DNA of 64,000 bases from a candidate division WWE3 bacterium RIFCSPHIGHO2_01_FULL_40_23 (GCA_001772615.1 MEUZ01000007.1:108283-172282); one strand, 5' to 3'; shown: positions 12,922-30,141, counted from the stretch's first letter. Notes: a model not told the origin generated them from the sequence alone. Program-made: numbers and translations.

Positions 12922-13079
12922 TTTTCTCTCCATTCTTTTTTGATTTTGTGTCTTATAGTACTATACATAAATAGAGCTTTTGGGGCAAATCATTTCAATT
13001 TGAAGAATTTTATGTGAAGGTATATGAATCTTGTGGTTAATAAATGGGTTAGCCTTTTAAAGTGACATTTATTCTAAAT

Positions 13080-13148
13080 GTCATCCTGAACTTGATTCAG
13101 GATCTCATATTTTTACAGCAGAGATCCCGGATTTGATCCGGGATGACA
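13080..13148. repeat. Family-1 nested palindromic repeat (two hairpin units)
   Basis: GTCATCCTGAACTTGATTCAGGATC...AGATCCCGGATTTGATCCGGGATGACA. Confidence 0.7.
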
Positions 13149-14251: not shown

Positions 14252-16939
14252 TTATTCTTCAGCGTTATCCTGGAGAGCTTTTTTGAAGGCCGCGCTCATA
14301 GAAGTTTCTCCCTCTTCCCCACCTTCAGTGTAAAAAGGAGGTTTCTCGGGTTTGGCCTTCCTTGTGCCGCTTGGAATCGGAAAGGCCTTGATCTCCTCAA
14401 GCTTTTGCCTTGCGGTAGCAAGCTCAAGGCGGGTCTTTGCAATTTCCTCTTCATAGTCTTTCGGACCATAAATTGGAATCGCAAAATACCCATAGATCCT
14501 TACCTTCCGTCCTCCGCGGCCATTGGGACCCTCGGGATTATTGCCTTGATACTCAAACAGATGTAGCTGTGTTGAGTTCTTGGCCCTCACCCGAGCGTAG
14601 CATCGCACACCGGTCTTGGCCTGTGTGCGTGTGTAGGGATCAGCAATGAGCTTCACCCAGGTCCCGCTTGCCTCGTCAAAGAACGGACCAGCAATGAAAT
14701 TACTCTCGTCGCGGGAGCCTTGCTCACCGGTGATAAAAGTAACTTCAAACGCCGCCCCATCTTCAACGGGCATCAAACCATAAGCTGAAGAAAGGCGCTC
14801 AATAGCAGCCGCTTCAGCCTGGTCAACCTCGGTAGCGGTTTCATTGCGACTCCGTTCCAAGTCGCGAAGAGCCCACTCAAGCTGACCAATTTCTTCTTCC
14901 GCCGCCTTAATCGCCTTGCGGCGCTTGGTGACCTCGGGGCTTGTGGAAGAATAACACCACCCATTAAAATCCGGATCGTAGTCGTCACCGACAATTTCCG
15001 GATCCCAGCCGTAAACTTCGCACGGCCAGACGGTGGTTTCTTCCTCACCCGAAGCGGGTTTGAAGGACCGGATCGGATCCTCCCTTTCCTCACGGGAAAC
15101 GTGAATCGTCACATTCCCAACGTAGGAAAGGTCAAATCCCGTCCCCTCTCCGCGGAAGCGCTCGTGCGGTTCAAGTTCACGAGCTTTTATGGTCTGAATA
15201 CCGGTTATTCCTGAAGCGGGGAGCTTCACAACCTCCCAGCTCTCATCAAACCGGTTGTCAACTTGCCAGCGTGACCAACGCAAGGCAAGCATTTCGGGGC
15301 CAACCATCTCCCAGCGCTTTACGCCTTCCGAGGTATAGCGCTTGCGATAGTCAGTCCCCGACGGCTCAACTTCCTCCCCGTCAGGGCCGATAACCCACAG
15401 ATCACTCTGTTCGTTGTCGCCCATCCAGCGGAAGTGGCCGGAAAAGTTAAGAAGAATCCGGCCGCTTTCTGCTTCTGACAGAATCTCCTCACACTCGCGG
15501 ATCTTTTCAAGAGCCGCCGCGTAGTCCTGCTTTTTAGCCTGCAGGATACCCGCCACAGCCCTCGCCTGCTCGGAATCTTTACCCAGTTTTTCAACCAGGT
15601 TTTGATATCCACCAAGCGCTGCGAGTCGGCCGGCTTCCGAACCCCTTAACCTTATGGCCAGACTCTTCTCGGCCATAAAGTCATGCTCGGTCAGGGAGGG
15701 AAGCTCAACTTCCGATTTCCCTTTTACCTGCGAGTCGTAGTAAAAATCTCCTTTCTTCTCGCAGTCCCCGACCCGAACGTAGCCCCCAAGCCAAGCTACC
15801 AGCTCAACGAGCTGGTTTCCCACCGCCTGCGGCAAAAACTGCAGGACGGTGAGGGCTGCAGGAGAAAACTTGGAGCCGAAAACACCTTTTTCGGTGAAAT
15901 AGTAGAAGGCAAAATCCTTCCATTCTTTCACAAGGTGGTCTCGATCCCACTCGCTTTCAAGGTGATCCAGTGTTGAAGCAAGGATCACCTCTCCGGCTTC
16001 CCGCGGCAGGGCATCCACAGAAAGGAGAAGCTTAGCCATATCGGCAACTTCCAGCCTCTTCTCCATCTGAAATTTCTCCGCGATAATCTGCTCCGCTTTT
16101 TCATAACGGAGGCAGTTACCACAGATCATCCGGCCTTGGATCCACCACGGATACTTTCCTTCCCGCGTGTCCCCCCAGCCGGAGCAATCCTTGCCACATC
16201 GGCCGCAAGTTTCTTCGTGCCGGCAGGTTTCGCATTTGGGATATGAATCCCAAACTTGCAAATCCCGCCGCTTACGACCGCACGGGCATGGGGGGTAAGC
16301 TGACTCCAGCTCGGTCTGATACCAAGCTGGAAGGTAGCGAACGGACAAAACCACTTTCCAAGCCGGGTCGTACACCGGATCTAAGCGATGAAAATACCAA
16401 TCGCCTCGGTCCTGTACGACCAGCTTGGTCAGCTGGTTTATTATTACCGGCAAAGCTTCTTCCCGTTCGCCGGTCTTCTCCCACGCAAGCTCACCCCTAA
16501 AGCTTACTTTCTCCCGCTCAAGAGGAGTCACCCGAATCTGGTGCTCCTCAAGAATGGAAGACGAAAGGTCGGCACCCCACACTAGTGTGTAGGTTCTCCT
16601 GTAGAAAGGAGTGCCGTTCCTCTCCTGAATCGGCCGTTCGTCACGCACACCTTCTTCGCTCTCGTTAAAGAGCCAGTCGGTTGCGATCGTAACCAGACCG
16701 ATCATCCCGTTTCCCAGATCTTTCCACCTTTCGGTGTAAAGAGGAGGGGCGGGTTTCCCCCGATACATCGTCCGGCCACGACCATCTTTCTTCGTTGTAA
16801 TCTCCTCCAGCTCCACACGCACCGTTTTATTAACGGGGGTGCCGGAGGGGAGAAAGACGATACACCTTCCGTAGGAGGCAACAGCCTCCCCGGGATTCTT
16901 GCCCTCGCGTGTTTCGAGGGTAACGATTTCTCCGGACAT
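14252..16939 (-). CDS. Large hypothetical protein: N-terminal TRAM-like domain, central Cys cluster (Zn-ribbon-like), C-terminal coiled coil
   Basis: AAAGGAGG RBS. N-terminal GEAVASYGRCIVFLPSGTPVNKTVRVELEEITTKKDG resembles a TRAM fold. CPCGRKRRD...CETCRHEETCGRCGKDCSGW...CGNC gives 12 Cys in 60 aa. A heptad-rich segment follows (EEEIGQLEWALRDLERSRNETATEVDQAEAAAIERL). Confidence 0.6.
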   Translation of the reverse strand: MSGEIVTLETREGKNPGEAVASYGRCIVFLPSGTPVNKTVRVELEEITTKKDGRGRTMYRGKPAPPLYTERWKDLGNGMIGLVTIATDWLFNESEEGVRDERPIQERNGTPFYRRTYTLVWGADLSSSILEEHQIRVTPLEREKVSFRGELAWEKTGEREEALPVIINQLTKLVVQDRGDWYFHRLDPVYDPAWKVVLSVRYLPAWYQTELESAYPPCPCGRKRRDLQVWDSYPKCETCRHEETCGRCGKDCSGWGDTREGKYPWWIQGRMICGNCLRYEKAEQIIAEKFQMEKRLEVADMAKLLLSVDALPREAGEVILASTLDHLESEWDRDHLVKEWKDFAFYYFTEKGVFGSKFSPAALTVLQFLPQAVGNQLVELVAWLGGYVRVGDCEKKGDFYYDSQVKGKSEVELPSLTEHDFMAEKSLAIRLRGSEAGRLAALGGYQNLVEKLGKDSEQARAVAGILQAKKQDYAAALEKIRECEEILSEAESGRILLNFSGHFRWMGDNEQSDLWVIGPDGEEVEPSGTDYRKRYTSEGVKRWEMVGPEMLALRWSRWQVDNRFDESWEVVKLPASGITGIQTIKARELEPHERFRGEGTGFDLSYVGNVTIHVSREEREDPIRSFKPASGEEETTVWPCEVYGWDPEIVGDDYDPDFNGWCYSSTSPEVTKRRKAIKAAEEEIGQLEWALRDLERSRNETATEVDQAEAAAIERLSSAYGLMPVEDGAAFEVTFITGEQGSRDESNFIAGPFFDEASGTWVKLIADPYTRTQAKTGVRCYARVRAKNSTQLHLFEYQGNNPEGPNGRGGRKVRIYGYFAIPIYGPKDYEEEIAKTRLELATARQKLEEIKAFPIPSGTRKAKPEKPPFYTEGGEEGETSMSAAFKKALQDNAEE

Positions 16940-16966
16940 GGCTTTTTAGCCTCCTTTTATTTTTTT

Positions 16967-17033
16967 GTCATCGCAAGTGAAGGGCGGTGGTCCTGACTTG
17001 ATTGCTTCGGTCGCTCTGCTTCCTCGCAATGAC
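16967..17033. repeat. Family-2 palindromic repeat (GTCATCGCAAG...GATTGCTTCGG...CTCGCAATGAC)
   Basis: Nested palindromes with outer GTCAT/ATGAC and inner GATTGCTTCG; see other copies. Confidence 0.7.
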
Positions 17034-17192: not shown

Positions 17193-17249
17193 AGATCCCG
17201 CATCAAGTGCGGGATGACAGAAGAGTCATTCCCGCGAAAGCGGGAATCT
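17193..17249. repeat. Family-1 nested palindromic repeat
   Basis: AGATCCCGCATCAAGTGCGGGATGACA...GTCATTCCCGCGAAAGCGGGAATC. Confidence 0.7.
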
Positions 17250-17431
17250 AAACATAGGAATTTTCTCCTGATCTTGGAAACGGATTGCTGCCAACAAATT
17301 TTAGAAATGAGCCGACAGCAGGATTAATACCTGTTACCTGTCGGCTCATGTGATTGCTTTGGAAACCTTTCTACCCCATAACCTAGAAGGTAGTTTCCAT
17401 TGAAGGTCTTGTACACGGCAATCCCATTTCA

Positions 17432-17509
17432 GATTGCTTCGCTACGCTCGCAATGACTAAATACATTGTCATCGCGAGGAGGCAGCCTATTGGCTGACAA
17501 CGAAGCGAT
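17432..17509. repeat. Family-2 palindromic repeat
   Basis: GATTGCTTCGCTACGCTCGCAATGAC...GTCATCGCGAGGAGG...CGAAGCGATC. Confidence 0.7.
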
Positions 17510-19273
17510 CTAAAAGTGGGAGAAGATTTGCTTCTCAGCGGTTTCGGCCGTGAATTTCGAAACCAGTTCTATCCGATCCGCGAACTCTTGGACAGTCGCG
17601 ATTGAGCTGGAACCAACATCGCACAAAATTACAAAGATGTTGATTTCCAATTCTTTCTTAACTGTTTTGAGAAAGCGGATAAACTCCGAGCTGACCGCGC
17701 ATTCGCCATCAGTGATGAGACAAATGTCGGCTTTTTTAAGGCCTTCTTCTTGAATCATCTCAATGGCTTTGCGCAGGGGTCGCTCAAAGTCAGTCCCGCC
17801 CCCTGCTTGGGCTTCGGCCAGCTCAAGCATTTGCTGGCCGGTCATCTGGCCCTGCGGATACACCTTTGACAGTTTTAGAACAGAGTCAAAGAGTATCCAG
17901 CCAAACGACCGTTTCTGGAGTTTTGCATAGTGAGCAAGAGACAACGTTGCTGCCTTTGCCCACTGTTGCTTTTCTCCCTCCATGGAACCCGATCCGTCTT
18001 CACAGACGATCACGGGGCCATGGCCCATCTTTTGCCGAACTTTCTGGCCATGAAGCCTAAGCTCCCCACGCGTCCACCTTTGAAGGGCTTTCGCGCGAAG
18101 AGCCGGGTGCACCAATGCAACCAACTCGGTCCTTTGAGCGCGCTTGAGATCGCGACCGGTTTCAACCGTTGCGACCCGCACGCCCTCCCCCGCGATTCTG
18201 GACCTAGCTTTGCGGGACGCGATCTTTCGAACACGCCCAAGCAAAGAAGCAAACTTTTTAAGCGCCTCGTTGCGCTTCATCCGTTCAAGTATCCCCAAAG
18301 TTTGCGGGATTCCCTGGCGGGTGAGTTCGCTTTCTTCCAAGCCCCAGGCCTCAATGGTTTCGGAAACCTCTTCCACCTTGGTCTGGGCATTGCGGACGGC
18401 TTGAAGTCCTATACGAGTCAGCTCACGCAGTTTTTCCTGCGCTTGCTGACTGCCGGGTTCCCCAAGCAGATCCCCTGCCAGTTTTTCGGCTTTAGCTTTT
18501 GCCAAATCAGCCTTTTGCTTTGCAGAATCCGCATTTGCTTTCGCATCGGCGGCTTCTTTAGCAAGCTGATCGGCAATTGCCCGCGCTTCCTCCTGGGTCA
18601 TACCAGAAGACAGCGCGCCCTCCATAGCTTCGTCAGAAGCGACGGAGGGTTGAGCCTGTTCCGAAGTCAACTGCCCTTGGCCGCCTGAGAGTTGACCACT
18701 TGGCTGTCCGCCTTGTGGTTGACCTCCCTGTTGACCTTGGGACTGACCCGAACCTTGTTGACCGGTCGCTTCCGCTGCAGCATCCGCCAACTGCTGAAGC
18801 ATCTGCGCTTGGGTTTGCGCCTGTTGCGCCTGTTCTTCAGCCTGATTGGCTTCCCCTTGAGCGGTTGCCTGCTCCCGGAGCTTTTGCCGATCCTCTTTTG
18901 GCACCAAAGCTAGGACGGATTCGCCCATTGCGACAGTCCCAAGGACCGACTTCAGCTCCGAAAGCGCCGTATCGGCATGAAGCTCCTGGTAAGCACCCGA
19001 TTTAAGGGCTTGCCCCAAAAGCTCCCACCAATACCGCCGATCGGCAGGGACCTCATCACTCACCTGCGGTTCTGGCGACCACAGGGTGTGATAAAGATCC
19101 AACAAGCAACCCTCAACTCCCGGAAGTGCCTCGGCACCTTTTTCTTCCAGTTCCGGGATTGAGGGTACATTCTCACGGTGACGGAGGTAACGCAGTGCCG
19201 TAAAGGCATCCGCGTCGGTCACCGCAAGCGCAAGTACTTCCTGCCGGGTGACCGGCCGTGGCCTAGTGGCCAT
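17510..19273 (-). CDS. von Willebrand factor A (vWA) domain protein with MIDAS motif; long Q/G/A-rich low-complexity and coiled-coil N-terminal half
   Basis: GGAGGAAGA RBS. C-terminal VIVCEDGSGSM (DxSxS MIDAS)...GGGTDFERPL...ICLITDGEC matches the vWA fold. Pairs with the upstream AAA+ gene as in RavA-ViaA / MoxR-vWA systems. Confidence 0.75.
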   Translation of the reverse strand: MATRPRPVTRQEVLALAVTDADAFTALRYLRHRENVPSIPELEEKGAEALPGVEGCLLDLYHTLWSPEPQVSDEVPADRRYWWELLGQALKSGAYQELHADTALSELKSVLGTVAMGESVLALVPKEDRQKLREQATAQGEANQAEEQAQQAQTQAQMLQQLADAAAEATGQQGSGQSQGQQGGQPQGGQPSGQLSGGQGQLTSEQAQPSVASDEAMEGALSSGMTQEEARAIADQLAKEAADAKANADSAKQKADLAKAKAEKLAGDLLGEPGSQQAQEKLRELTRIGLQAVRNAQTKVEEVSETIEAWGLEESELTRQGIPQTLGILERMKRNEALKKFASLLGRVRKIASRKARSRIAGEGVRVATVETGRDLKRAQRTELVALVHPALRAKALQRWTRGELRLHGQKVRQKMGHGPVIVCEDGSGSMEGEKQQWAKAATLSLAHYAKLQKRSFGWILFDSVLKLSKVYPQGQMTGQQMLELAEAQAGGGTDFERPLRKAIEMIQEEGLKKADICLITDGECAVSSEFIRFLKTVKKELEINIFVILCDVGSSSIATVQEFADRIELVSKFTAETAEKQIFSHF

Positions 19274-19287
19274 ATCTTCCTCCAGTT

Positions 19288-19354
19288 GTCATCGCGAGCG
19301 AAGCGTGACGATCTCGGCTTGATTGCTTCGGCCGCTCCGCTTCCTCGCAATGAC
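19288..19354. repeat. Family-2 palindromic repeat
   Basis: GTCATCGCGAGCGAAGCG...GATTGCTTCGGCCGCTCCGCTTCCTCGCAATGAC. Confidence 0.7.
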
Positions 19355-19359
19355 ATGAA

Positions 19360-20568
19360 TCACCTATTCGGTGCGATGAAAACCGCGATCACTTTCTGCT
19401 TCACGGCCTCCACCTGCTGGTGCAAATTGGCAATTTCCTGCCGCATTGCATCACCACCTTCCACCTCACCCTCAAGGCGCATCAGCTCTTTCACAGCGCT
19501 TTCGCACTGGGTCAGAGCCGCAACGCCCTTAGTGCGGTCACCACCCAAAACGATCTGAACGGTGCCGCCGGGGGCGAGGAGGCTGTCAACGAGCTCTTGG
19601 GCCTCCGTGAGCGCTGTCTGGGTATACGGCGCGAGCTTCGCCTTGACAACGGCGATTTGCTCGGGCGTATACCAGAGCAACCACTCAAGGACGACGAGGT
19701 CCTGCTTTCCAACCACTGTCCGACCGTTGAGCAAGGCGTTAGCCTGCATCACGTCGAACAGACGGCCGAAACGCCGATCGTCGTCCCAAGCCCACTTGAA
19801 GTCCGCCGAAGTGTCATCAACCAGCTCCTGGAGGATATCCAGGGTGGTGTCGATGATCGCCTCGGGGACCTCGACGAACAGACGAGCCTTGCGCAGAACC
19901 TCAACATCCGCCAGGGTTAACTGGGCGACTGCCTGACTCCGCGAGCTTGCGCGGTCGCGGCTGAGCCGAGCCTGCACAAGCTTCTTCTTCCCACCCCGAT
20001 CCAGTGGGTTCACCACAACACGGATGGTCATACGAGACCACACCGCACTAAGGTTTCCTTCCTGATCGGGCAGCTCGTTGCTAGCAGCGAGGAAAGCCAA
20101 TAATGGCGTTCTCACCATCTGGCCTTCATGCCTCACCCCATCGCCTTTAGAGAGATCGAGGAGAGTCTGAAGCACGCTGGCTTCCGACTTCCAGATCTCG
20201 TCGGCGAAGACGATGTGCGCGAGGGCCGCGCGCCCGAGCTGATCACGCGTTCGGATCTGCTTCCCACCATCCGCGGTCGGAACTTCTTCGATCGAGGTTG
20301 ACTCGACCAAAAGCTGTTCCACCGAGACGATGGTCGGCATGAGCGCGTCGTAAAAGACCGCGCCCGAAATCCGACGCACCAACGCCTGGATCGTTCCCGT
20401 CTTGTCAATCCCGGGCGATCCGAGGAAGAAAGCCGGACGACCAGACACGAGGGCAAGCCATGTTGCCCAAACGATATCGCTGCGCTGGATGTGGCTTGCT
20501 TCCACATCAGCGCTGATGTCCCTCACCTTGGGGGCAAGGGCTAAAGCCTCTTTTAGCAAGGCTTCCAT
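19360..20568 (-). CDS. MoxR/RavA-like AAA+ ATPase
   Basis: GAGGAGGTGGGG RBS. Walker A GSPGIDKT (GxPGxxK[ST] as in RavA), Walker B IVFADEI, sensor-1-like ASNELP. 402 aa. Confidence 0.7.
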   Translation of the reverse strand: MEALLKEALALAPKVRDISADVEASHIQRSDIVWATWLALVSGRPAFFLGSPGIDKTGTIQALVRRISGAVFYDALMPTIVSVEQLLVESTSIEEVPTADGGKQIRTRDQLGRAALAHIVFADEIWKSEASVLQTLLDLSKGDGVRHEGQMVRTPLLAFLAASNELPDQEGNLSAVWSRMTIRVVVNPLDRGGKKKLVQARLSRDRASSRSQAVAQLTLADVEVLRKARLFVEVPEAIIDTTLDILQELVDDTSADFKWAWDDDRRFGRLFDVMQANALLNGRTVVGKQDLVVLEWLLWYTPEQIAVVKAKLAPYTQTALTEAQELVDSLLAPGGTVQIVLGGDRTKGVAALTQCESAVKELMRLEGEVEGGDAMRQEIANLHQQVEAVKQKVIAVFIAPNR

Positions 20569-20753: not shown

Positions 20754-21096
20754 TTATATCTCCTCGAATTCAAAATGAAGCGCTTTAATCCGGCGGAACT
20801 CAACAAACTTGTACCACCGCCCTTTAACGCTCACTTCCCCTTCAGCCGGTGGAACCTGTTGCATTTGGGCCCACAAAGGCTTGACGCCAAGTTCCACGAG
20901 CTTTGCGATCACGGAGAGGGGAGCCCACGACAACGATGTCATCGTAACCACCACTACGAAACCGCACGACGATATCCTCAGCCGATGAAAACGGCTTCGG
21001 ATCCTTCACCACCTCAACCTCACCAAAAATCCGCTTGAGAGCAGAAATCTGAGAGGGGAGGGGCTCATGCTGGGACATCCACAAGATCTTCTTCAT
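20754..21096 (-). pseudogene. small hypothetical gene apparently split by a frameshift (or assembly indel) near 20950
   Basis: GGGAGG RBS before MKKILWMSQHEP... (ORF 20842-21144). The protein-like sequence continues in another frame (ORF 20754-20954). The in-frame continuation of the first piece is R/G-rich junk. Confidence 0.35.
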
Positions 21097-21277: not shown

Positions 21278-21553
21278 TCATTTCTCACCTCCGCGGAGTT
21301 CTTCCACCGCTTTTTTGAAAGCTTCTTCTCCTTCATCGCGACGGATAACTGCCAACCAGCGCGTACCCTTGGCAAAAGTCAGATTCGTCATCTGATCTTT
21401 TCCCATCAAACGCGTATACAAGCCAGCCGCATCAAACGAAGCCGATGGGGATTTGGATCCTGCAATTTCAATCGCCTTCTCAATATCTTTCCCATCGACC
21501 CTTCCCTCCTTATACAGAAGGGTCAAAAACTGGACACCGGTACGAGCATCCAT
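21278..21553 (-). CDS. small hypothetical protein
   Basis: AAAGGAG RBS; 91 aa. Confidence 0.55.
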   Translation of the reverse strand: MDARTGVQFLTLLYKEGRVDGKDIEKAIEIAGSKSPSASFDAAGLYTRLMGKDQMTNLTFAKGTRWLAVIRRDEGEEAFKKAVEELRGGEK

Positions 21554-21710: not shown

Positions 21711-22175
21711 TCAAACGGCGTACCGCCCGTCAGAAAGCGTGTACACCAAATCCCTCCTTTCACCAGCTAAACACTTGGCCCCCGCACTCTCCATAATTTC
21801 CGGAGTGAGCTGGACCCAGCCTTCCCCTGGTGAAGAAAGACCGAGGGTTGCCACCTTAAACATCTGGCTGTTCCAGTCTTGCGAAAGCCAGAACGTCCAG
21901 GAAGCGGCCTGATCTTCCGAAACCCACTCGGGAAGATCGAGCCGAAAGCCAGCAATCGCGGTTACGGCGATCATTGGCTCTATTCTCCCCTCCTCCCCAA
22001 ACCGGAAACCATGTGTTTCCTGGTAAGGTGGGGAAGGGTTTACCTCCCAACTCCCGTCGATGAAAGCGACAACGTCGCCCACGACGAGAGCTCCTTCTCT
22101 GCCTTCGACAGACAGAGCACGGACCGATGATCCGAGCTGCTGCCACTCAACGGCAGACGGGTATCTGATCTTCAT
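21711..22175 (-). CDS. hypothetical protein
   Basis: AAAGGAG RBS 8 nt upstream; 154 aa. Confidence 0.55.
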   Translation of the reverse strand: MKIRYPSAVEWQQLGSSVRALSVEGREGALVVGDVVAFIDGSWEVNPSPPYQETHGFRFGEEGRIEPMIAVTAIAGFRLDLPEWVSEDQAASWTFWLSQDWNSQMFKVATLGLSSPGEGWVQLTPEIMESAGAKCLAGERRDLVYTLSDGRYAV

Positions 22176-22271
22176 CTCAACACTCCTTTGTTTCCCGTCG
22201 GGCTCAAGGCCTTAATGGGATGTTGTTGAATGATTTCTTCTTTGAGCTTTCGCTCTCAAAATCTTCCATTA

Positions 22272-22361
22272 GATTGCTTCGCTACGCCTGCCTGCCGGCA
22301 GGCAGGCTCGCAATGACTTTAAACCAGGTCATTGCGAGGCTACAAAGTAGCCGAAGCAATC
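22272..22361. repeat. Family-2 palindromic repeat (extended, with CTGCCTGCCGGCAGGCAGG core)
   Basis: GATTGCTTCGCTACGCCTGCCTGCCGGCAGGCAGGCTCGCAATGAC...GTCATTGCGAGGCTACAAAGTAGCCGAAGCAATC. Confidence 0.75.
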
Positions 22362-22585: not shown

Positions 22586-23851
22586 TTAAAGCGGAAACGG
22601 AATCACACTCCCAACAGGAACCTGGCTATCGTTTGAAAAAACAACGACAGCAGGCCCATGGCTGGGGTGAAGTTCGCTCCACTTTTTCCCGCTGACGGTG
22701 CGGGAAGACTCCCCAGGTTCAAATACAGCAACCCAGGAAGTTCCAGATTTGGTGTAGGACCTGGCGATAGCGCCGGTTAGCCACCGTGGCGCCTTGCCCG
22801 AAATCACTATACCCTTCTCCGTTTTCACGGAGGGCGGGATCACCAAGGGCAAATTCTTTACATCAAAAATCTGCCCGGGGATGCCAAACTCGACAAGAGT
22901 ATGATCATCCCTCTCCTCAACCCGCCAGTTGAGAAGTTGGCTGCCCTCACCCTGCGGTTCAACCTCCGGTATTCCTACATAACCCCAAGCTACCTTGGGA
23001 TCATAATAGAATACCTTCGTTGACTTTAGCCCGCAGGCGAGGGCATGGTATGGGGCTCCAAGCGGCGTGTTTCCCCAGAGGCACACCTTGCTTTGGCCGG
23101 CAACCTTTGCCGATACCATTGCAAGTAGCCCGGGGAGAACCGCCGGGAGCCAATCCCGATCCGATCCGCCATTTCGGACAGGGAGATTCAGACCCTCAGC
23201 CAGTCGCGGAAAGTTCACATCCGCAAGCTCGGACCCATCGGTCCAAGGCTCTGGCTGACCCGCAAGCTTTATTAAAAGCTCGGCCACCGCGCGGGCAGTC
23301 GGTGACCCAATCGGTGGCGTTTCCCGCTCAAGCCTCGTAATTCTGGCTTTGAGTGGAGCCCCCGTCTCAAACACCTCGTCCTCGGCCCCGACCAGAACCG
23401 ACTCCAGAATCGCCAAGGGTTTTACCCCAAGGCGCCCCGCTTCGGAAATCCAAGTCGGAACCACCTCGTCATATTTCGGCGACGCAATCACCAGAAGGTA
23501 ATCGCACCCCGAAAGAATGCGCTCGTTTTGGGAAGTCAGTTTAACCCCTGTCGGGGAAAACCTCCCTTCCACATCGAGCAACATCCCGCCAAGGTCGACG
23601 AGAGTCACGGGCATTCGGGAGTTGCGAACCGAGTCAACGACCCAGTCCACAAACCCATCAAGAAACTTGCCCTTGCGGCGAACCGCCTTGACAAGTTCCG
23701 GGTCCGCTTCAAAGCTCCAGCCGGTGATGCCCTCACCGTCAGGAGCCGCCTCAACGACGACAAAACTATCGCGAGGCAGAAGGGTCCGAAGCAGACCCAT
23801 GAGAACAGTCTTCCCCGAGTGGGGAGGACCGCCGATGGCCACTTTGACCAT
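22586..23851 (-). CDS. P-loop NTPase domain fused to an uncharacterised C-terminal domain
   Basis: AAGGAGGAGG RBS before MVKVAIGGPPHSGKTVLMGLL (Walker A GxxxxGKT); Walker-B-like LVDLGG. The C-terminal ~220 aa has no motif I recognise. Confidence 0.6.
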   Translation of the reverse strand: MVKVAIGGPPHSGKTVLMGLLRTLLPRDSFVVVEAAPDGEGITGWSFEADPELVKAVRRKGKFLDGFVDWVVDSVRNSRMPVTLVDLGGMLLDVEGRFSPTGVKLTSQNERILSGCDYLLVIASPKYDEVVPTWISEAGRLGVKPLAILESVLVGAEDEVFETGAPLKARITRLERETPPIGSPTARAVAELLIKLAGQPEPWTDGSELADVNFPRLAEGLNLPVRNGGSDRDWLPAVLPGLLAMVSAKVAGQSKVCLWGNTPLGAPYHALACGLKSTKVFYYDPKVAWGYVGIPEVEPQGEGSQLLNWRVEERDDHTLVEFGIPGQIFDVKNLPLVIPPSVKTEKGIVISGKAPRWLTGAIARSYTKSGTSWVAVFEPGESSRTVSGKKWSELHPSHGPAVVVFSNDSQVPVGSVIPFPL

Positions 23852-24124: not shown

Positions 24125-25009
24125 CTAGGCCTTGGTCTCGCAGGTGGCCGAGGTGATGGCCAGGCGGAAAACCTGCCCACCTGGGAAGGCCACCGAGATG
24201 GTGCCCTCGCCGGCCTCGACCGAAACGCCATACGTACCGAGCTCGCTCGCCAATTGGCGAAGAGTCCCGGCGGTGGCGTCCGACTGCCACTTGGCAGTCA
24301 TGTTCGTGCCCCACAGGCGCATGTCCTGGGGGTCCACGATCTCACCAACGTGGAACGCCTTGTCGGCGCCACTGGCGAGGCGGATGGTCCGCGGCCAGCT
24401 CTCCGAAAGGCCGTGAATCGTCGCGGCTTGGAGAGCCGCGGCAAGACCGGCGCCCGCGGGGAGGTATAAAACCCGCCGCGAGGCCCAGTCGGCCTTGGTC
24501 AAACCGGTTGCGATCAGCCGGTCGACCATACCCTTGGTCGGGTCGGCCCAGTCGATTTGGCCGACGTTCGCGTCAATGGCGCGAATTTCCTCGACCGCCA
24601 CGTCGAGGATTTGGGCAAGCTCCCCAAGCTGCCCAGCGCTCATCCCCCGCCCGGACCCGTCCAAGACGGTGTAGCCGAGAAACGCTTCCCCTTGGGGGAC
24701 ATCACCGCGGCGACTGCGGACCGCCTGATGGCGGTAGCCACCGAGGTCCAAAACCCCCACCCGCTCGGCCTTTTGGCCGATCGAGTACAACGTCAGCGTC
24801 GGCAGTCCGCTGACCATTTCCAACCCCGCCGTGGCCAAAATGGCCGCCACGGCCTGCCCGGGAAGCGCGACCTCGCCCGCGGTCCGAAGACCGGGGCCGG
24901 CGGACTCCAAAATCTTTTGGACCTGGGCCAAAAAGTTCTGGCCAAAGTCCAGGGTTGCCGGCACGACCACGTCGGCCGGCAGGGCCAGATGAAACGAAAA
25001 TTTGGTCAT
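24125..25009 (-). CDS. hypothetical protein, possible ASKHA (actin/sugar-kinase-like) ATPase fold
   Basis: AAGGAGAAATCTC RBS. Gly-rich phosphate-loop-like segments VGVLDLGGYRH and YTVLDGSGRGMSAG. The fold call is weak. Confidence 0.45.
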   Translation of the reverse strand: MTKFSFHLALPADVVVPATLDFGQNFLAQVQKILESAGPGLRTAGEVALPGQAVAAILATAGLEMVSGLPTLTLYSIGQKAERVGVLDLGGYRHQAVRSRRGDVPQGEAFLGYTVLDGSGRGMSAGQLGELAQILDVAVEEIRAIDANVGQIDWADPTKGMVDRLIATGLTKADWASRRVLYLPAGAGLAAALQAATIHGLSESWPRTIRLASGADKAFHVGEIVDPQDMRLWGTNMTAKWQSDATAGTLRQLASELGTYGVSVEAGEGTISVAFPGGQVFRLAITSATCETKA

Positions 25010-25212
25010 GAGATTTCTCCTTTCTTCCTAGCCAACACTAATCCTTCCTGTTTTGTTTAAATCCCTCGGACGAAGCTATCCTTGGAAACAGAAAGGTTGA
25101 TAAATCCTGAATCTGCTCCAACTAAATTTTTGCCGTCACAAAAATCCGGTTGGAGAAAATCCAACGAATATACCCAATCCTTTAGTTTTTATTTCTAATC
25201 TGAACTTATGAA

Positions 25213-25264
25213 CGTCATCCTGAACTCGATTCAGGATCTAGATCCTGACTTGCGTCAGGATGAC
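25213..25264. repeat. Family-1 nested palindromic repeat
   Basis: GTCATCCTGAACTCGATTCAGGATCTAGATCCTGACTTGCGTCAGGATGACA. Confidence 0.7.
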
Positions 25265-25544
25265 AATTAGTAAGGACTTTTCAGAATGGGAACTTAAAAT
25301 GAAATTTCCAATCCGCAGAGCTCTTGCCAGCCATGCGACTTTAACTCAAAGTTAGAAGCCCACGCACCTTTAGTTGCGAGATACGGATTGGAATAAGAAA
25401 TGATTGCTGCCGTCTTCTCCGGAGTTAATTATTTTGATTACTCCAAAGAAAACCGGTCATAGGCAAATATTTTCCAAAGGGTATCTTTGGCCTTTTGTAA
25501 TTCCCGCCGCGAATACCACTGGAGGTTTCGCCTTTGCCATTTGT

Positions 25545-26258: not shown

Positions 26259-26439
26259 CTTCAACCCTCCTTTCCTGCTCAAGGCTCATCCGCCTATGGC
26301 GGACGGTTGCGATTACTTAAATCGCAAGGAGCATGCCCACCCAGTGGACGAAGGAAGAAAATGAGTAATTGCCCACCCGATTTTGATAAGCAAATACTCA
26401 TCTTCTTTACTAAACTCTTGCTTTCAAAATTTTCTATAA

Positions 26440-26505
26440 GATTGCTTCGCTCCGCTCGCAATGACGTTAAACTAGGTCATAGCGAGGCTACAAAGTAGCT
26501 GAAGC
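26440..26505. repeat. Family-2 palindromic repeat
   Basis: GATTGCTTCGCTCCGCTCGCAATGAC...GTCATAGCGAGGCTACAAAGTAGCTGAAGC. Confidence 0.7.
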
Positions 26506-26969: not shown

Positions 26970-27401
26970 CTAGGCGCGGGCGTGAAGGGCCTTGTGGACC
27001 TTCTGCCGCGCCTTCCGGCTTCCCCCTCCGCCGTACAACGCCCCCTTCTGCCCGGGAGCGCCCTGGGCTTTCCGGGAGTCCTGGGCCCGGGCGGCCTGCC
27101 GAGCCGCGCGAGCGCTCTCGCGGGCCGCGTTGAGGGCCCTCGCCTCGGGACTCCCAGGGGCTGGGCGGCGGGCTACCGCGGCGGACGCTTGTCGGCGCCC
27201 GAGTTCCCCTGCCGCTTTGCGAGCGGCCTCCTCCCCCCTGAACTTCTCCCAGGCCTCATCGGCCTGGACCTTCACCGTGCGGAAAGCACGGCACGCACGG
27301 TCGCAAAAGCTCTGCGACCTTGAGCTCCCCCACGTCGGGGGGAAAACGACCGTGGCGGTCGCGAGGGCTTTCGCCCCGCAACCGCAGTTAATAATATTCA
27401 T
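26970..27401 (-). CDS. hypothetical protein with N-terminal Cys cluster and Arg/Ala-rich tail
   Basis: AAAAGGAGAAG RBS; MNIINCGCGAK...CDRACRAF followed by low complexity. Last gene of the GC-rich island. Confidence 0.45.
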   Translation of the reverse strand: MNIINCGCGAKALATATVVFPPTWGSSRSQSFCDRACRAFRTVKVQADEAWEKFRGEEAARKAAGELGRRQASAAVARRPAPGSPEARALNAARESARAARQAARAQDSRKAQGAPGQKGALYGGGGSRKARQKVHKALHARA

Positions 27402-27494
27402 TTTTTACTTCTCCTTTTTGATTTATTTTTCCGTTCAAAGATTCCTTCCTTAAAAGAAATCCTCCAAAGGCAAAACAACTCTTTGGAGAAATAT

Positions 27495-27574
27495 GTCATC
27501 GCGAACGAAGTGAAGCGATCTCTTCAGATTGCTTCTCCGCTTCTGACAGTTGGCGGATAGTGGATCGCAATGAC
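27495..27574. repeat. Family-2 palindromic repeat
   Basis: GTCATCGCGAACGAAGTGAAGCGATC...GATTGCTTCTCCGC...GATCGCAATGAC. Confidence 0.7.
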
Positions 27575-27920
27575 TCAAGGAGGATAGGTTTTGGGGAGAA
27601 GGCAGGCTTACGAAAAACCTCACCCTCTCCCCTAACCTCAAAATACAAATTTCAAGTAATAGTTTATTCAATTGTCAAAGTGCTTTTGGGCCGTTATGAA
27701 AGTGTTAAAATACTAAATGAGTCAATAACGCAATCAAAAAACCCAAAAACGTACACAAAGCATTAATAAATGGATCAATACTTTGTCCAGTTTGGAGGCC
27801 CTACCACCTCCATCCTGGATAAAAGTCAACTACTTTTCATTTGGTAGGTTTAGTAATTGACCCTTCTTGATTGACAAGTCTCTTGTCAATCAAGAAGTTG
27901 ATTCATCGTTTACGGGTTCT

Positions 27921-28031
27921 GTCATTCCGGCGAAAGCCTGTCATCCTGACGTAAGTCAGGATCTAGATCCCGGGTCAAGCCCGGGATGACAAGGATCCAG
28001 TCCTGTACGACATAAAGTCAGCTCAGGATGA
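27921..28031. repeat. Family-1 nested palindromic repeat cluster (four hairpin units)
   Basis: GTCATTCCGGCGAAAGCC, GTCATCCTGACGTAAGTCAGGATC, AGATCCCGGGTCAAGCCCGGGATGACA and AGTCAGCTCAGGATGAC. Confidence 0.75.
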
Positions 28032-28326
28032 CTTAAAAAATTTAAATTTGGCTTAGGAAAATGAAGGTAGGGTTAAGTCTCTCCCCTAACTTCAATCCTA
28101 TTCATCCTAATCTGAACCTCCTTTTAAGAGGTTCAGTTAAGATCCAAACTGTGAGGAGTAATCCTCACGCTTGGGTTCTCTCCCCTCGTACCAAACATGA
28201 ATTTATTGGCAGGTTACGAAGGTAGGTTTCAGGCTTTAGCCTGATTCGTAAACAAATTAATGTTTACTACTTGTTTATAGTCCGCGCGGATTACTCCGGG
28301 CTAAGACTCCTTCAGTTTCAGCTTGA

Positions 28327-28383
28327 GATTGCTTCTCCCTCAACATCCACCTGCCTCAGGCAGGAGCTCGGGATCGCAATGAC
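28327..28383. repeat. Family-2 palindromic repeat
   Basis: GATTGCTTCTCCC...CTGCCTCAGGCAGG...GATCGCAATGAC. Confidence 0.65.
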
Positions 28384-29349: not shown

Positions 29350-30141
29350 ATGGATGTGTTTGAGGATACACTTTATCATTGCGGCTTGTCAGAGCCTGAA
29401 GCTAAAGTCTACACTGCTCTCCTTAACTCCGGAGGCCAAACTGTTTTACAGCTATCCGCCCACGCTTCGCTTAAGCGCACAAACCTCTATAACGTTCTTG
29501 AGGACCTCACCAAAAAAGGCGTTGTAGCGGGAAAGAAGGTTAGAGGCAAAACCTTATATTTCCCTGAATCACCCAGAAGACTTGAAGACCTGCTCCTTGT
29601 CAGGGAAAACAGTATTTACACGGCAAGACAAACCCTGGAACTTGTGATGGGCATCCTGCAATCAAAATTCAACCTGATTACCAACAAACCCGTAATAACC
29701 TATCTTGAGGGTCTGCCGGGACTTAAAAGGCTGTACCAAGATATCCTTGATACCGGCCAAGATATCCTTCTATTCAGATCAACTTTTGATGATAAAAGAG
29801 CCGATGTTGACAGGCTCATTAAAAAGCAAATCACCGACCAGGTAAAAAGGGGGATTCACGCCCGGGTCATAAGCCCCTTTGAAACGGACGCCAAGGAAAT
29901 GTATTTAAAATACGACAAGTTCAGGCTGGTATCGCAAAAGTTCACTACAAAATTTCCCTTAAACCTTCCCGCCCAGATAATTATTTATGGAAATAAAATC
30001 TCAATGTCTACAATAAGAAAGGACATCATCATTACTTTAATTGACAATAAAGACATAACCGAAACCTTTAAAGTCCTCTTTGAGTTTGTTTGGGCTTATC
30101 TTGAAACGGAGCACAAAGAGCTTGTAAAAAACTGGAAGTAA
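29350..30141 (+). CDS. TrmB-family transcriptional regulator
   Basis: N-terminal winged HTH LSEPEAKVYTALLNSGGQTVLQLSAHASLKRTNLYNVLEDLTKKGVV is typical of TrmB; 263 aa. A TTGACA -35-like hexamer lies at ~29317. Confidence 0.7.
   Translation: MDVFEDTLYHCGLSEPEAKVYTALLNSGGQTVLQLSAHASLKRTNLYNVLEDLTKKGVVAGKKVRGKTLYFPESPRRLEDLLLVRENSIYTARQTLELVMGILQSKFNLITNKPVITYLEGLPGLKRLYQDILDTGQDILLFRSTFDDKRADVDRLIKKQITDQVKRGIHARVISPFETDAKEMYLKYDKFRLVSQKFTTKFPLNLPAQIIIYGNKISMSTIRKDIIITLIDNKDITETFKVLFEFVWAYLETEHKELVKNWK

What the first reader, a model, noticed from the sequence alone, without database searches (positions are those of the whole stretch)
17510..20568. MoxR/RavA-like AAA+ ATPase plus vWA (MIDAS) partner inside the island
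Gene order and strand (AAA+ then vWA) mirror RavA-ViaA and MoxR-vWA chaperone or conflict modules. The AAA+ Walker A is GSPGIDKT, with Asp where RavA-type proteins usually have Ala/Gly before the Lys. The vWA protein has an unusually long Q/G/A-rich, coiled-coil N-terminal half (QGSGQSQGQQGGQPQGGQPSGQ...AKEAADAKANADSAKQKADLAKAKAEKLAG) ahead of a canonical DGSGSM MIDAS domain.
Basis: partly seen in the sequence, partly recalled or inferred. Interest (0 to 1): 0.55.

Follow-up and report, generated by a model that had tools for sequence, protein, structure and literature searches.

The report
CPR RavA/ViaA-like pair in Csx3 module
The two genes are a real RavA-like AAA+ ATPase and its ViaA-like vWA/MIDAS partner, and they form the core of a previously undescribed gene module of candidate-phyla-radiation bacteria that also holds a CRISPR type III accessory protein (AAA-Csx3) and a large RNA-binding-like zinc-ribbon protein, most likely an immunity or conflict system.

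Summary
On the minus strand, 19360-20568 encodes a 402-aa MoxR-class AAA+ ATPase whose only solved relative is E. coli RavA (E 7e-26). 17510-19273 encodes a 587-aa ViaA-like protein with a complete MIDAS motif. Walker A is GSPGIDKT. The Asp is a clade signature (107 of 117 homologs), and all catalytic residues are invariant.

The pair is not an orphan. In 13 diverse Patescibacteria loci and one deeper relative it lies in one conserved module:
- a SIMIBI P-loop NTPase with Csx3, the type III CRISPR accessory family C3a67 "AAA-Csx3";
- small proteins;
- the AAA+;
- the vWA;
- a large protein, the 895-aa gene here, with a TRAM-like domain, a Zn ribbon and a coiled coil.

The module is a compositional island (GC3 0.55-0.70 against 0.31-0.44) inserted at different chromosomal sites. 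No cas genes lie nearby.

It fails the RavA/ViaA equivalog cut-offs, has no LARA domain, and has no vWA-fused beta-propeller despite the Pfam "bpMoxR" label. The nearest annotated AAA+/vWA pairs are on jumbo phages and plasmids.

Best reading (confidence 0.5): an NTP-dependent conflict module in which the AAA+/vWA couple remodels the large protein under control of NTPase-Csx3. This is a new variant of a known kind.

The parts
19360..20568 (-). RavA-like MoxR-class AAA+ ATPase, 402 aa. Walker A GSPGIDKT is at nt 20398-20421, Walker B FADEIWK at 20188-20208, sensor-1 N164, R179, and sensor-2 RR at 19768-19785. There is no LARA domain.
17510..19273 (-). ViaA-like vWA/MIDAS partner, 587 aa. It has a conserved N-terminal domain (aa 1-125), a helical region with a variable Q/G/S/P linker (aa 126-275; nt 18449-18898), a conserved middle region, and a C-terminal vWA domain (aa 416-587). 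MIDAS elements are DGSGS at nt 17984-17998, GGGT at 17786-17803 and TDGE at 17702-17716.
14252..16939 (-). Third conserved component, 895 aa. It has a TRAM-like beta-barrel N-terminus, beta-rich domains, an 8-Cys double Zn ribbon (aa 218-276; nt 16112-16288), a helical core, and a variable C-terminal half with coiled coils. It ends in an amphipathic tail, SMSAAFKKALQDNAEE (nt 14255-14302). It has no Pfam, NCBIfam, PADLOC, PHROG or PDB sequence match.
22586..23851 (-). Fusion of a SIMIBI-type P-loop NTPase (GGPPHSGKT, VDLGG) with a Csx3-like domain, 421 aa. The ORF can be extended to 23902. It is a member of the CRISPR type III accessory family C3a67 'AAA-Csx3'. The Csx3 domain lacks the H57, H60 and R71 equivalents.
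21278..21553 (-). Small conserved protein (g91), present in 6 of 13 related loci. Function unknown.
20754..21096 (-). Small conserved alpha/beta-like protein (the g128 family, found in 8 of 13 loci and in L026). It is interrupted here by a 1-nt frameshift near 20925-20954.
21711..22175 (-). Lineage-specific 154-aa ORF in the variable slot. In four other loci this slot holds a SpoT-like HD_4 hydrolase.
24125..25009 (-). 294-aa protein with a Csx15 (CARF-superfamily cA4-binding) domain at aa 125-231. It is found only in this lineage's island.
29350..30141 (+). TrmB-family wHTH regulator, divergent from the module. A homolog holds the same relative position in 7 of 13 loci. Its GC is host-like, so it may be the insertion neighbour rather than cargo.
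19286..19354 (.). Palindromic hairpin repeat (GTCATTGCGAG...CTCGCGATGAC) inserted between the AAA+ and vWA genes. These genes abut or overlap in other loci. Further copies lie at 16965-17033, 17431-17497, 22235-22361, 26403-26505 and 27494-27574, all inside the island.

Best explanation
The two genes encode a working AAA+/adaptor couple of the MoxR-vWA type, most similar to RavA-ViaA.

Inferred mechanism, from established knowledge of MoxR-vWA systems (RavA-ViaA, Rea1/Midasin, CbbQO, ATV p618/p892; summarised in PMC7159879):
- The ATPase forms a hexameric ring.
- The vWA protein docks on the ring through its conserved N-terminal and middle regions.
- Its long helical arm and flexible Q/G-rich linker hold out a C-terminal MIDAS site, which captures an acidic residue of a client protein.
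- ATP hydrolysis then remodels or releases that client.

Shown here: the couple is the invariant centre of a horizontally mobile module in Patescibacteria. The module order is SIMIBI NTPase plus Csx3 (type III CRISPR accessory family 'AAA-Csx3'), small proteins, AAA+, vWA, and a large TRAM-like/Zn-ribbon/coiled-coil protein with a variable C-terminal half.

Inferred function:
- The large protein is the client or effector, and probably binds RNA.
- NTPase-Csx3 supplies a nucleotide or cyclic-oligoadenylate-dependent input.
- The whole module is an NTP-gated conflict or immunity system, analogous to the MoxR-vWA ternary systems, working without a cis-encoded Cas10.
For: Active couple:
- RavA and ViaA are the best hits.
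- All ATPase catalytic residues are invariant in 117 homologs.
- MIDAS is complete in 13 of 13 homologs.
- The two genes are adjacent or overlapping in other loci.

One module:
- AAA+, vWA and the large protein occur in 13 of 13 loci, and NTPase/Csx3 in 12 of 12 loci with upstream sequence.
- The same order recurs in the deeper relative L026.

Mobile island:
- Core GC is about 10-13 points above the flanks in most loci.
- GC3 is 0.55-0.70 against 0.31-0.44 in flanking genes.
- Insertion sites differ, for example between murG and murC in L010 and beside toxin-antitoxin genes in L007 and the window.

Conflict flavour:
- NTPase-Csx3 matches PADLOC C3a67 at 6e-46.
- Its 29-30% identical homologs sit next to Cmr2/Cas10 cassettes.
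- A Csx15-domain gene lies in the same island.
- Four loci carry a SpoT-like HD_4 hydrolase in the variable slot.
- The C-terminal half of the large protein is hypervariable.
- CARF-linked vWA-MoxR systems near type III loci are a published precedent (PMC10910872).

RNA-binding hint: local Foldseek matches of the N-terminus to the TRAM domain of RlmCD (probability 0.96-1.0, 61 columns).
Against: - No direct evidence shows that the three proteins interact or that the large protein is the client.
- No nucleotide cyclase or cas gene lies in the window or in any module locus, so the source of any signal is unknown.
- The fused Csx3 domain in this window lacks the conserved catalytic residues.
- PADLOC has no model matching the AAA+, the vWA protein or the 895-aa protein.
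- No recognisable toxic or enzymatic effector domain was found.
- The g128 gene is frameshifted in this genome, so this copy may be decaying.
- The TRAM assignment rests on a short local structural match with a poor E-value (0.2-0.5).
- Relatives of the pair on phages and plasmids fit a function serving the mobile element equally well.
Confidence: 0.5

Rival explanations
1. The island is an integrated or degraded mobile element (plasmid-like or virus-like) of Patescibacteria. On this reading the AAA+/vWA pair serves the element itself, for example in assembly or remodelling of an element-encoded structure as in Acidianus two-tailed virus p618/p892. The Csx3 and Csx15 domains would act as anti-CRISPR sponges or ring nucleases.
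For: - The nearest annotated relatives of the pair are on jumbo phages: Bacillus 0305phi8-36 gp66/gp63 (vWA aligned over aa 59-585, E 1e-53) and Moorella MTATph1.
- PHROG 24053 scores 3e-56 and PHROG 19600 scores 2e-32. There are weak hits to profiles of length 618 and 892, and to the ATV vWA cochaperone.
- Relatives at 30-35% identity are on conjugative and other plasmids.
- The island has foreign GC3 and island-specific hairpin repeats.
- Viruses and plasmids are known to carry ring nucleases as anti-CRISPRs (PMC13148439).
- An AAA-Csx3 homolog lies on a 167-kb IMG/VR contig.
Against: - The Pfam lists on record for the loci that have them (the window's element, L007-L011 and L026) name no integrase, replication, capsid, terminase or conjugation gene within 10 kb of the module.
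- Loci L013-L023 have no Pfam lists. All-against-all clustering of the ORFs of 13 loci found no further recurrent family of that kind.
- IMG/VR holds no relative of the 895-aa protein and only one 25%-identical AAA+.
- Phage and plasmid loci share only the pair, not the other module genes.
- Csx15 was reported absent from phage genomes.
- Module GC tracks host GC across hosts from 0.31 to 0.6, which suggests long residence.
Confidence: 0.22
2. The module is a Midasin-like RNP-remodelling machine. The TRAM/Zn-ribbon protein binds tRNA or rRNA, and the AAA+/vWA couple with the SIMIBI NTPase assists ribosome or RNP maturation peculiar to Patescibacteria.
For: - The large protein has a TRAM-like N-terminus and a Zn ribbon.
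- MoxR-class AAA+ with MIDAS drives pre-60S remodelling in eukaryotes (named in PMC7159879).
- SIMIBI NTPases often act in assembly (fold matches to MinD, Cfd1, HypB and MeaB).
- Sequence conservation across phyla is very high (58-79% identity).
Against: - Distribution is patchy: 11 loci among one genome each of 185,579 species by the pattern scan.
- Insertion sites vary and codon composition is foreign.
- The C-terminal half of the large protein is hypervariable.
- A core gene is frameshifted here.
- The module associates with CRISPR-accessory families rather than translation genes.
Confidence: 0.1
3. It is simply the Patescibacteria ortholog of E. coli RavA-ViaA, a housekeeping chaperone for respiratory or Fe-S enzymes and LdcI.
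For: RavA and ViaA are the top NCBIfam hits, and RavA is the only PDB hit. The RavA-type lid AAA_lid_8 is present.
Against: - Scores are far below the equivalog cut-offs: 104 against 681 bits and 47 against 500 bits.
- The protein is 402 aa against 498 aa for RavA, with no LARA-domain or RavA C-terminal Pfam hit.
- The genomic context is completely different.
- The known RavA-ViaA partners are respiratory complexes (NADH:ubiquinone oxidoreductase I, fumarate reductase; titles). From general knowledge, these are lacking in most Patescibacteria.
Confidence: 0.03
4. It is a member of the MoxR-vWA-beta-propeller ternary systems of Kaur et al. 2020, as the Pfam family name bpMoxR suggests.
For: Pfam PF20030 bpMoxR scores 67.9 bits, above its cut-off of 27. 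The three-gene AAA+/vWA/large-protein layout has a variable third component.
Against: - The defining vWA-fused C-terminal beta-propeller is absent. The protein ends with the vWA domain.
- The P-loop is GxPGxDKT, not the GxxxTAKS often seen in that group.
- The third protein shows no TPR, beta-propeller or membrane segment by Pfam or Foldseek.
- The host phyla differ.
Confidence: 0.03

Closest known systems
E. coli RavA-ViaA (MoxR AAA+ ATPase and its vWA partner)
   Same: - The gene order is the same, AAA+ then vWA.
- The AAA+ core and the RavA-type lid (AAA_lid_8) align over residues 10-312 with Walker A and B, sensor 1, the Arg finger and sensor 2 in register.
- The vWA partner matches the ViaA middle and C-terminal regions (ViaA 188-425) and has a full MIDAS.
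   Different: - Identity is low and both proteins score far below the equivalog cut-offs.
- There is no LARA domain, and the C-terminus is shorter and helical.
- Walker A has Asp where RavA has Ala.
- The vWA partner carries a long Q/A/G-rich helical region with a variable linker.
- It sits in a mobile module with AAA-Csx3 and a TRAM/Zn-ribbon protein instead of standing alone as ravA-viaA.
MoxR-vWA-centric ternary conflict systems (VMAP, iSTAND, FtsH and beta-propeller types; Kaur, Burroughs, Iyer, Aravind 2020, PMC7159879)
   Same: - A MoxR plus vWA core sits beside a third large protein with a variable region.
- Accessory nucleotide-related domains are linked. Csx3 is reported once as an effector-side domain in those systems.
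- The neighbourhoods are mobile.
- The Pfam bpMoxR model matches.
   Different: - The third component is none of VMAP, iSTAND, FtsH or a TPR-propeller protein (no Pfam hit).
- The vWA protein lacks a fused propeller or effector domains.
- The hosts are tiny-genome Patescibacteria, not multicellular bacteria.
- A SIMIBI NTPase-Csx3 gene is an obligatory neighbour.
Type III CRISPR accessory family C3a67 'AAA-Csx3' (Shah et al. 2018, PMC6546367) and the Csx3/Crn3 ring nuclease (PMC7371418)
   Same: - The upstream gene matches the C3a67 profile over nearly its full length (E 6e-46).
- Its C-terminal domain superposes on AfCsx3 (TM 0.80-0.85).
- More distant homologs sit beside Cmr cassettes.
   Different: - There is no CRISPR array or cas gene here.
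- The fused Csx3 domain has lost H57, H60 and R71, so ring-nuclease activity is unlikely.
- It is linked to MoxR-vWA instead of Cas10.
Phage, virus and plasmid MoxR-vWA pairs (Bacillus phage 0305phi8-36 gp66/gp63; Moorella phage MTATph1; ATV p618/p892; Chroococcidiopsis pCHRO.01)
   Same: These are the closest annotated sequence relatives of the vWA partner, with nearly full-length alignment to gp63. They share the AAA+ then vWA order, and the vWA ends at the C-terminus.
   Different: - Identity is only 25-35%.
- None of the other module genes is present.
- In the one relative where Walker A was read (the AAA+ of L026, which is closer to the plasmid and phage ATPases than to the Patescibacteria clade) it is the canonical GPPGEAKS.
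- Function is known only for ATV (tail development), and ATV is the most distant of these.

Membership tests
MoxR-class AAA+ ATPases | AAA+ core with Walker A Lys, Walker B DE, sensor-1 Asn, Arg finger and sensor-2 Arg | tested here: met
   K56/T57, D123/E124, N164, R179 and R265/R266 align with RavA and are invariant in 117 homologs. AAA_5 and bpMoxR are above their Pfam cut-offs.
MoxR-class AAA+ ATPases | Adjacent vWA/MIDAS partner gene | tested here: met
   The vWA gene lies immediately downstream in the window and in 13 of 13 loci.
MoxR-class AAA+ ATPases | Helix-2 insert characteristic of the clade | not tested
   No structure of the AAA+ was predicted. The alignment to RavA is continuous through this region, but the insert was not examined.
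RavA (NCBIfam NF010054 equivalog) | Whole-protein score above the equivalog cut-off (681 bits) | tested here: not met
   104 bits, covering only RavA positions 4-300 of 498.
RavA (NCBIfam NF010054 equivalog) | LARA domain and RavA C-terminal helical domain | tested here: not met
   The protein is 402 aa. No Pfam hit falls beyond AAA_lid_8 (aa 262-309) at E<=1, and the PDB alignment stops at residue 312.
RavA (NCBIfam NF010054 equivalog) | RavA-type AAA lid (AAA_lid_8) | tested here: met
   PF17868 scores 41.8 bits against a cut-off of 22.8.
ViaA (NCBIfam NF008230 equivalog) | Whole-protein score above the cut-off (500 bits) | tested here: not met
   47.2 bits, aligning ViaA positions 188-425.
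vWA/MIDAS domain | DxSxS, Thr and Asp metal-site residues | tested here: met
   DGSGS (426-430), GGGT (T494) and TDGE (D522) are conserved in 13 of 13 homologs. VWA_2 is above its cut-off.
MoxR-vWA-beta-propeller ternary system (Kaur 2020) | [quoted passage not shown] | tested here: not met
   The vWA domain runs to the last residues. Homologs end 'AEEAE..F..L' right after it.
MoxR-vWA-beta-propeller ternary system (Kaur 2020) | Third component with TPR and beta-propeller regions and a membrane segment | tested here: not met
   The 895-aa protein has no Pfam family at E<=1. Foldseek propeller matches have probability <=0.07. No membrane-segment prediction was run.
MoxR-vWA-beta-propeller ternary system (Kaur 2020) | P-loop variant GxxxTAKS (frequent, not strict) | tested here: not met
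   The clade consensus is GxPG[VI]DKT.
VMAP and iSTAND ternary systems (Kaur 2020) | Third gene is a VMAP or an inactive STAND NTPase | tested here: not met
   Pfam-A (2025 copy) gives no family for the 895-aa protein at E<=1. I recall, but did not check, that this copy holds VMAP and iSTAND models. If it does not, this row counts as not tested.
C3a67 AAA-Csx3 CRISPR type III accessory family | Profile match over the P-loop and Csx3 domains | tested here: met
   PADLOC PDLC01059 scores 6.3e-46, covering aa 4-386 against model positions 7-362 of 382. Foldseek matches Csx3 at TM 0.80-0.85 and the N-domain to SIMIBI NTPases.
C3a67 AAA-Csx3 CRISPR type III accessory family | Location next to a type III cas cassette | tested here: not met
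   No cas similarity or array in the window or module loci. Distant homologs do sit next to Cmr genes.
Csx3/Crn3 ring nuclease | Absolutely conserved H57, H60, H80, R71 and catalytic D69 | tested here: not met
   The window domain has R, T/gap, G and E at the H57, H60, R71 and D69 positions. TIGR02579 scores 36 against a cut-off of 55.4 bits. Stand-alone Csx3 genes in other loci keep these residues.

The most novel reading that the evidence does not exclude
The module is a stand-alone immune or conflict effector specific to Patescibacteria. It has captured a type III CRISPR accessory sensor (AAA-Csx3, sometimes with Csx15 or a SpoT-like hydrolase). It uses a RavA-like AAA+ ring with an Asp-bearing P-loop, together with a MIDAS adaptor, to switch on a new RNA-binding TRAM/Zn-ribbon protein. 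It would therefore respond to cyclic-oligoadenylate or another nucleotide signal without a cis-encoded Cas10. This would be a new class of MoxR-vWA ternary system and one of the first defence systems defined for these episymbiotic bacteria.
Probability: 0.3. Interest if true: 0.75.

Novelty: new variant of a known kind. Interest (0 to 1): 0.55.

Why it matters
MoxR-vWA couples are widespread, but their clients are mostly unknown. Patescibacteria have tiny genomes, few recognised defence systems and few CRISPR loci. A module they conserve at 58-79% identity and exchange horizontally must therefore earn its keep.

Linking a CRISPR type III accessory family (AAA-Csx3) to a RavA/ViaA-like remodelling machine gives a concrete, testable route from nucleotide signalling to AAA+-driven activation of an effector. 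It also nominates a client, the TRAM/Zn-ribbon protein, for biochemical work.

The Asp in the P-loop is conserved in a clade whose catalytic residues are otherwise all intact. It is a small, well-defined enzymological question.

Tried and rejected
- Megablast of the 16-kb island against the phage and plasmid collections found no match.
- PADLOC gave nothing for the AAA+, the vWA protein or the 895-aa protein.
- PDB sequence searches with the vWA protein and the 895-aa protein found nothing.
- Rfam, at gathering and at E<=1, found nothing credible in the 2-kb gene-free stretch and repeats at 24.9-29.4 kb. That stretch is not conserved in other loci.
- No CRISPR-like arrays or tandem repeats were found in the window.
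- No att-like direct repeats bound the island. The repeats found are hairpin elements, not borders.
- tblastn with one set of Cmr, Cas1, Cas2 and CARF proteins found no hits in the window or module loci. Its sensitivity is limited.
- The IMG/VR scan with the 895-aa family alignment found no relatives.
- The idea that the higher GC merely reflects Ala/Gly/Arg-rich proteins was rejected, because GC3 is also 0.15-0.3 higher than in flanking genes.
- The idea that the Walker A Asp marks a dead ATPase was rejected. All other catalytic residues are invariant, and the Asp itself is conserved.

Full report
**What is at the coordinates.**
- The window's background GC is about 0.41. A stretch from roughly 12-14 kb to 28 kb has GC 0.51-0.585.
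- On the minus strand of this stretch lie a 402-aa ORF (19360-20568), a 587-aa ORF (17510-19273) and an 895-aa ORF (14252-16939).
- An identical protein is recorded in NCBI as a hypothetical protein of a candidate division WWE3 bacterium. The same element occurs identically in several metagenome assemblies.

**The AAA+ protein.**
- Pfam gives bpMoxR (67.9 bits), AAA_lid_8 (41.8) and AAA_5 (27.9), all above their cut-offs.
- NCBIfam gives only RavA, at 104 bits against a cut-off of 681.
- The only solved relatives are E. coli RavA chains (E 7e-26), aligned over residues 10-312.
- In that alignment GSPGIDKT faces RavA's GPPGIAKS, FADEIWK faces FLDEIWK, AASNELP faces AASNELP, and the Arg finger and sensor-2 Arg are in register.
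- Among 117 full-length homologs, K56, T57, D123, E124, N164, R179, R265 and R266 are invariant. Position 55 is D in 107, N in 9 and G in 1.
- A deeper relative of the module (L026) has the usual GPPGEAKS.
- There is no LARA or RavA C-terminal domain.

**The vWA protein.**
- VWA_2 is above its cut-off. ViaA is the best NCBIfam hit, at 47 bits against a cut-off of 500, and aligns ViaA positions 188-425.
- MIDAS (DGSGS, GGGT, TDGE) is complete and conserved in 13 of 13 homologs.
- The architecture has four parts:
  - a conserved N-terminal domain (aa 1-125);
  - a Q/A/G-rich region (aa 126-275, 75% Q/A/G/E/S/K) made of two conserved helical-looking segments around a non-conserved G/Q/S/P linker, whose length ranges from 11 to 87 residues among homologs;
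  - a conserved middle region;
  - a vWA domain that runs to the C-terminus.
- I did not run a coiled-coil predictor.
- An exhaustive phmmer search of 1.84 billion representatives found 4112 relatives, 487 of them at E<=1e-30. The window's clade forms about 14 clusters at 44-67% identity. Identity then drops sharply to 35% or less.

**The pair is part of a larger conserved module.** I fetched loci around homologs from Saccharibacteria, Paceibacterota, Harrisonbacteria, Doudnabacteria, Parcubacteria and unclassified Patescibacteria, plus one MAG labelled Gammaproteobacteria. tblastn, blastp and clustering across 13 loci gave the following:
- AAA+, vWA and a homolog of the 895-aa protein occur in 13 of 13 loci.
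- A P-loop NTPase and a Csx3 domain, fused or as neighbouring genes, occur in all 12 loci that have upstream sequence.
- A small ~120-aa protein (g128) occurs in 8 loci and a 91-aa protein in 6.
- A divergent TrmB-family regulator occurs in 7.
- Four loci carry a SpoT-like HD_4 hydrolase between NTPase/Csx3 and the AAA+. The window has an unrelated 154-aa ORF in that slot.
- L026 is a deeper relative, with vWA at 33% and AAA+ at 27-29% identity. It has the same set and order.

**It is a compositional island that moves.**
- Core GC exceeds the flanks by about 10-13 points in most loci, across hosts from 0.31 to 0.6 GC.
- In the window, GC3 is 0.55-0.70 for the module genes against 0.31-0.44 for flanking genes. 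The shift is therefore not just a matter of amino-acid composition.
- Insertion sites differ. In L010 the module lies between murG and murC. In L007 and in the window it lies beside toxin-antitoxin genes.
- No integrase or att-like repeats were seen.

**The other components.**
- *The 895-aa family.* It has no match in Pfam, NCBIfam, PADLOC, PHROGs or PDB sequences.
  - An alignment of 28 homologs shows a conserved N-terminal ~440-600 residues with eight conserved Cys, and a variable C-terminal half.
  - The AlphaFold model (pLDDT 77, good for residues 1-640) gives an all-beta N-terminal region, a Zn ribbon, a helical core, further beta domains and long coiled coils.
  - Nearly all members end in a short amphipathic helix with a basic or acidic tail.
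- *The upstream 421-aa protein.* It matches PADLOC C3a67 'AAA-Csx3' (E 6e-46). [quoted passage not shown] 2018.
  - Its model (pLDDT 91.7) superposes on A. fulgidus Csx3 at the C-terminus (TM 0.80-0.85). The N-terminus resembles SIMIBI NTPases such as MinD, ParF, HypB and MeaB.
  - Homologs at 29-30% identity lie directly beside Cmr2/Cas10 cassettes.
  - The fused Csx3 domain has lost the residues that are absolutely conserved in ring nucleases. Stand-alone Csx3 genes in other loci keep them.
- *The 294-aa gene at 24125-25009.* In the window's island it carries a Csx15 domain, just above the NCBIfam cut-off (36.5 against 35 bits).
- *cas genes.* No cas gene or array is present in the window or in the module loci.

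**Relatives outside Patescibacteria.** Only the AAA+/vWA pair is shared, at 25-35% identity.
- Jumbo phages carry it: Bacillus 0305phi8-36 gp66/gp63 and Moorella MTATph1.
- A phage-like region of a Bacillota MAG carries it.
- Plasmids of cyanobacteria, actinomycetes and Brevibacillus carry it.
- IMG/VR holds no relative of the 895-aa family.

**Interpretation.**
- *Shown:* an intact RavA/ViaA-like couple, conserved linkage to NTPase-Csx3 and to the TRAM/Zn-ribbon protein, island composition, and variable accessory genes.
- *Inferred from what is known of MoxR-vWA systems:* a hexameric ATPase uses the vWA adaptor, whose MIDAS site captures a client peptide, to remodel a client. The co-conserved large protein is the obvious candidate.
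- *Evidence for a conflict or immunity role:*
  - two CRISPR type III accessory families and a nucleotide hydrolase lie in the neighbourhood;
  - the C-terminus of the large protein is hypervariable;
  - the module sits among toxin-antitoxin genes;
  - CARF-linked vWA-MoxR systems near type III loci are a published precedent.
- *Main rival:* the island is a mobile-element remnant whose pair and ring-nuclease-like genes serve the element.
- *Rejected memberships:* RavA/ViaA orthology and the beta-propeller ternary family both fail tested defining features.
- I found no paper describing this module.

**Verdict.** This is a new variant of a known kind, a MoxR-vWA system with a new third component and an AAA-Csx3 partner, confined mainly to Patescibacteria. 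The function remains inferred. Interest is moderate, 0.55.

Noticed in passing
window 16965-17033, 17431-17497, 19286-19354, 22235-22361, 26403-26505, 27494-27574, 28373-28383: A family of palindromic hairpin repeats (GTCATTGCGAG...GATTGCTTCG...CTCGCRATGAC) fills the intergenic spacers of the island. There are 13 matches to the 11-mer against 1.2 expected, and all lie between 16.9 and 28.4 kb. None occurs in the homologous loci of other genomes. One copy separates the AAA+ and vWA genes, which abut or overlap elsewhere. The repeats are MITE/REP-like. Their role is unknown, and could be as terminators, RNA processing sites or mobile elements.
   Followed up: partly
window 13072-13148, 17193-17219, 25206-25270, 27939-28032 (also 1298, 56902): A second hairpin repeat family (GTCATCCTGA...TCAGGATCTAGATCC...GGGATGACA) has 7 exact 10-mer matches against 0.18 expected. 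Most lie in or at the edges of the island.
   Followed up: partly
window 20754-21096 (-): The conserved small gene (g128 family) upstream of the AAA+ is split by a 1-nt frameshift: 'DDIVVVG|SPL...' against 'DDIVVVAPLSVI...' in homologs. The same sequence is seen in several independent metagenome assemblies, so this is not a read error. It may be a pseudogene or a recoding site.
   Followed up: partly
window 24125-25009 (-): A 294-aa protein has a Csx15 (CARF-superfamily cA4 sponge and slow ring nuclease) domain at aa 125-231 (NCBIfam 36.5 bits, cut-off 35). This is a second CRISPR type III accessory domain in an island with no cas genes. It is absent from the other module loci.
   Followed up: partly
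window 22586-23851 versus L007 8506-8814, L010 6176-6487, L015 6214-6519, L016 6382-6723, L017 8172-8534, L019 8697-8999, L021 6774-7115, L023 3076-3381: There are two Csx3 forms in the module. Stand-alone ~102-aa Csx3 genes keep the ring-nuclease residues H57, H60/61, D69, K/R71 and H80. Csx3 domains fused to the NTPase have lost them. L010 and L021 carry both forms.
   Followed up: partly
L013 3225-3923, L015 8449-9318, L017 9397-9990, L021 9190-9726: A SpoT/RelA-type HD_4 hydrolase gene occupies the variable slot of the module in four genomes (Pfam HD_4 31.1 bits, cut-off 27.2). This hints at (p)ppGpp-like or other nucleotide signalling.
   Followed up: partly
window 14255-14302 (C-terminus of the 895-aa protein) and homologs; window 21278-21553: The C-terminal halves of the large proteins are unrelated, yet nearly all end in a short amphipathic helix after an acidic or Pro-rich linker. 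Examples are SMSAAFKKALQDNAEE, MAEAFRRALQG, LAEFNKVFGR and LFGGQVRKKPAGRK. The 91-aa protein ends in a similar EEAFKKAVEEL. This could be a docking peptide or a membrane-targeting helix.
   Followed up: no
window 27401-29350, esp. 29328-29300, 29242-29214 and 29104-29060 (-): A ~2-kb stretch without ORFs of 120 aa or more lies between the island genes and the TrmB gene. It holds two near-perfect sigma-70-like promoters on the minus strand (12/12 and 11/12) followed about 110 nt later by a 20-bp-stem terminator-like hairpin. This could be a small RNA or a leader. There is no Rfam match, and the stretch is not conserved in other loci.
   Followed up: partly
window 30146-31684 (-) and 29350-30141 (+); L007 3354-6414; L015 808-4266; L017, L021, L022: A large uncharacterised protein, convergent with the TrmB-like regulator, recurs next to the module in most of the seven TrmB-bearing loci (seen in the window, L007, L015, L017, L021 and L022; not established for L019), and the pair also recurs in L018, which was not in the set of 13. 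The proteins fall into two weakly related families. Both genes have host-like GC. They may be a preferred insertion neighbourhood or a diverged part of the system.
   Followed up: partly
L027 3416-4327, L032 2807-3703: In Bacillota phage-like and plasmid loci, the related AAA+/vWA pair is preceded by a DUF6744 protein. This suggests a different conserved partner in the mobile-element branch of the family.
   Followed up: no
L022 (CAYHVQ010000001.1): One module-bearing MAG is labelled uncultured Gammaproteobacteria (flank GC 0.54-0.57). This is either mis-binning or transfer outside Patescibacteria.
   Followed up: no
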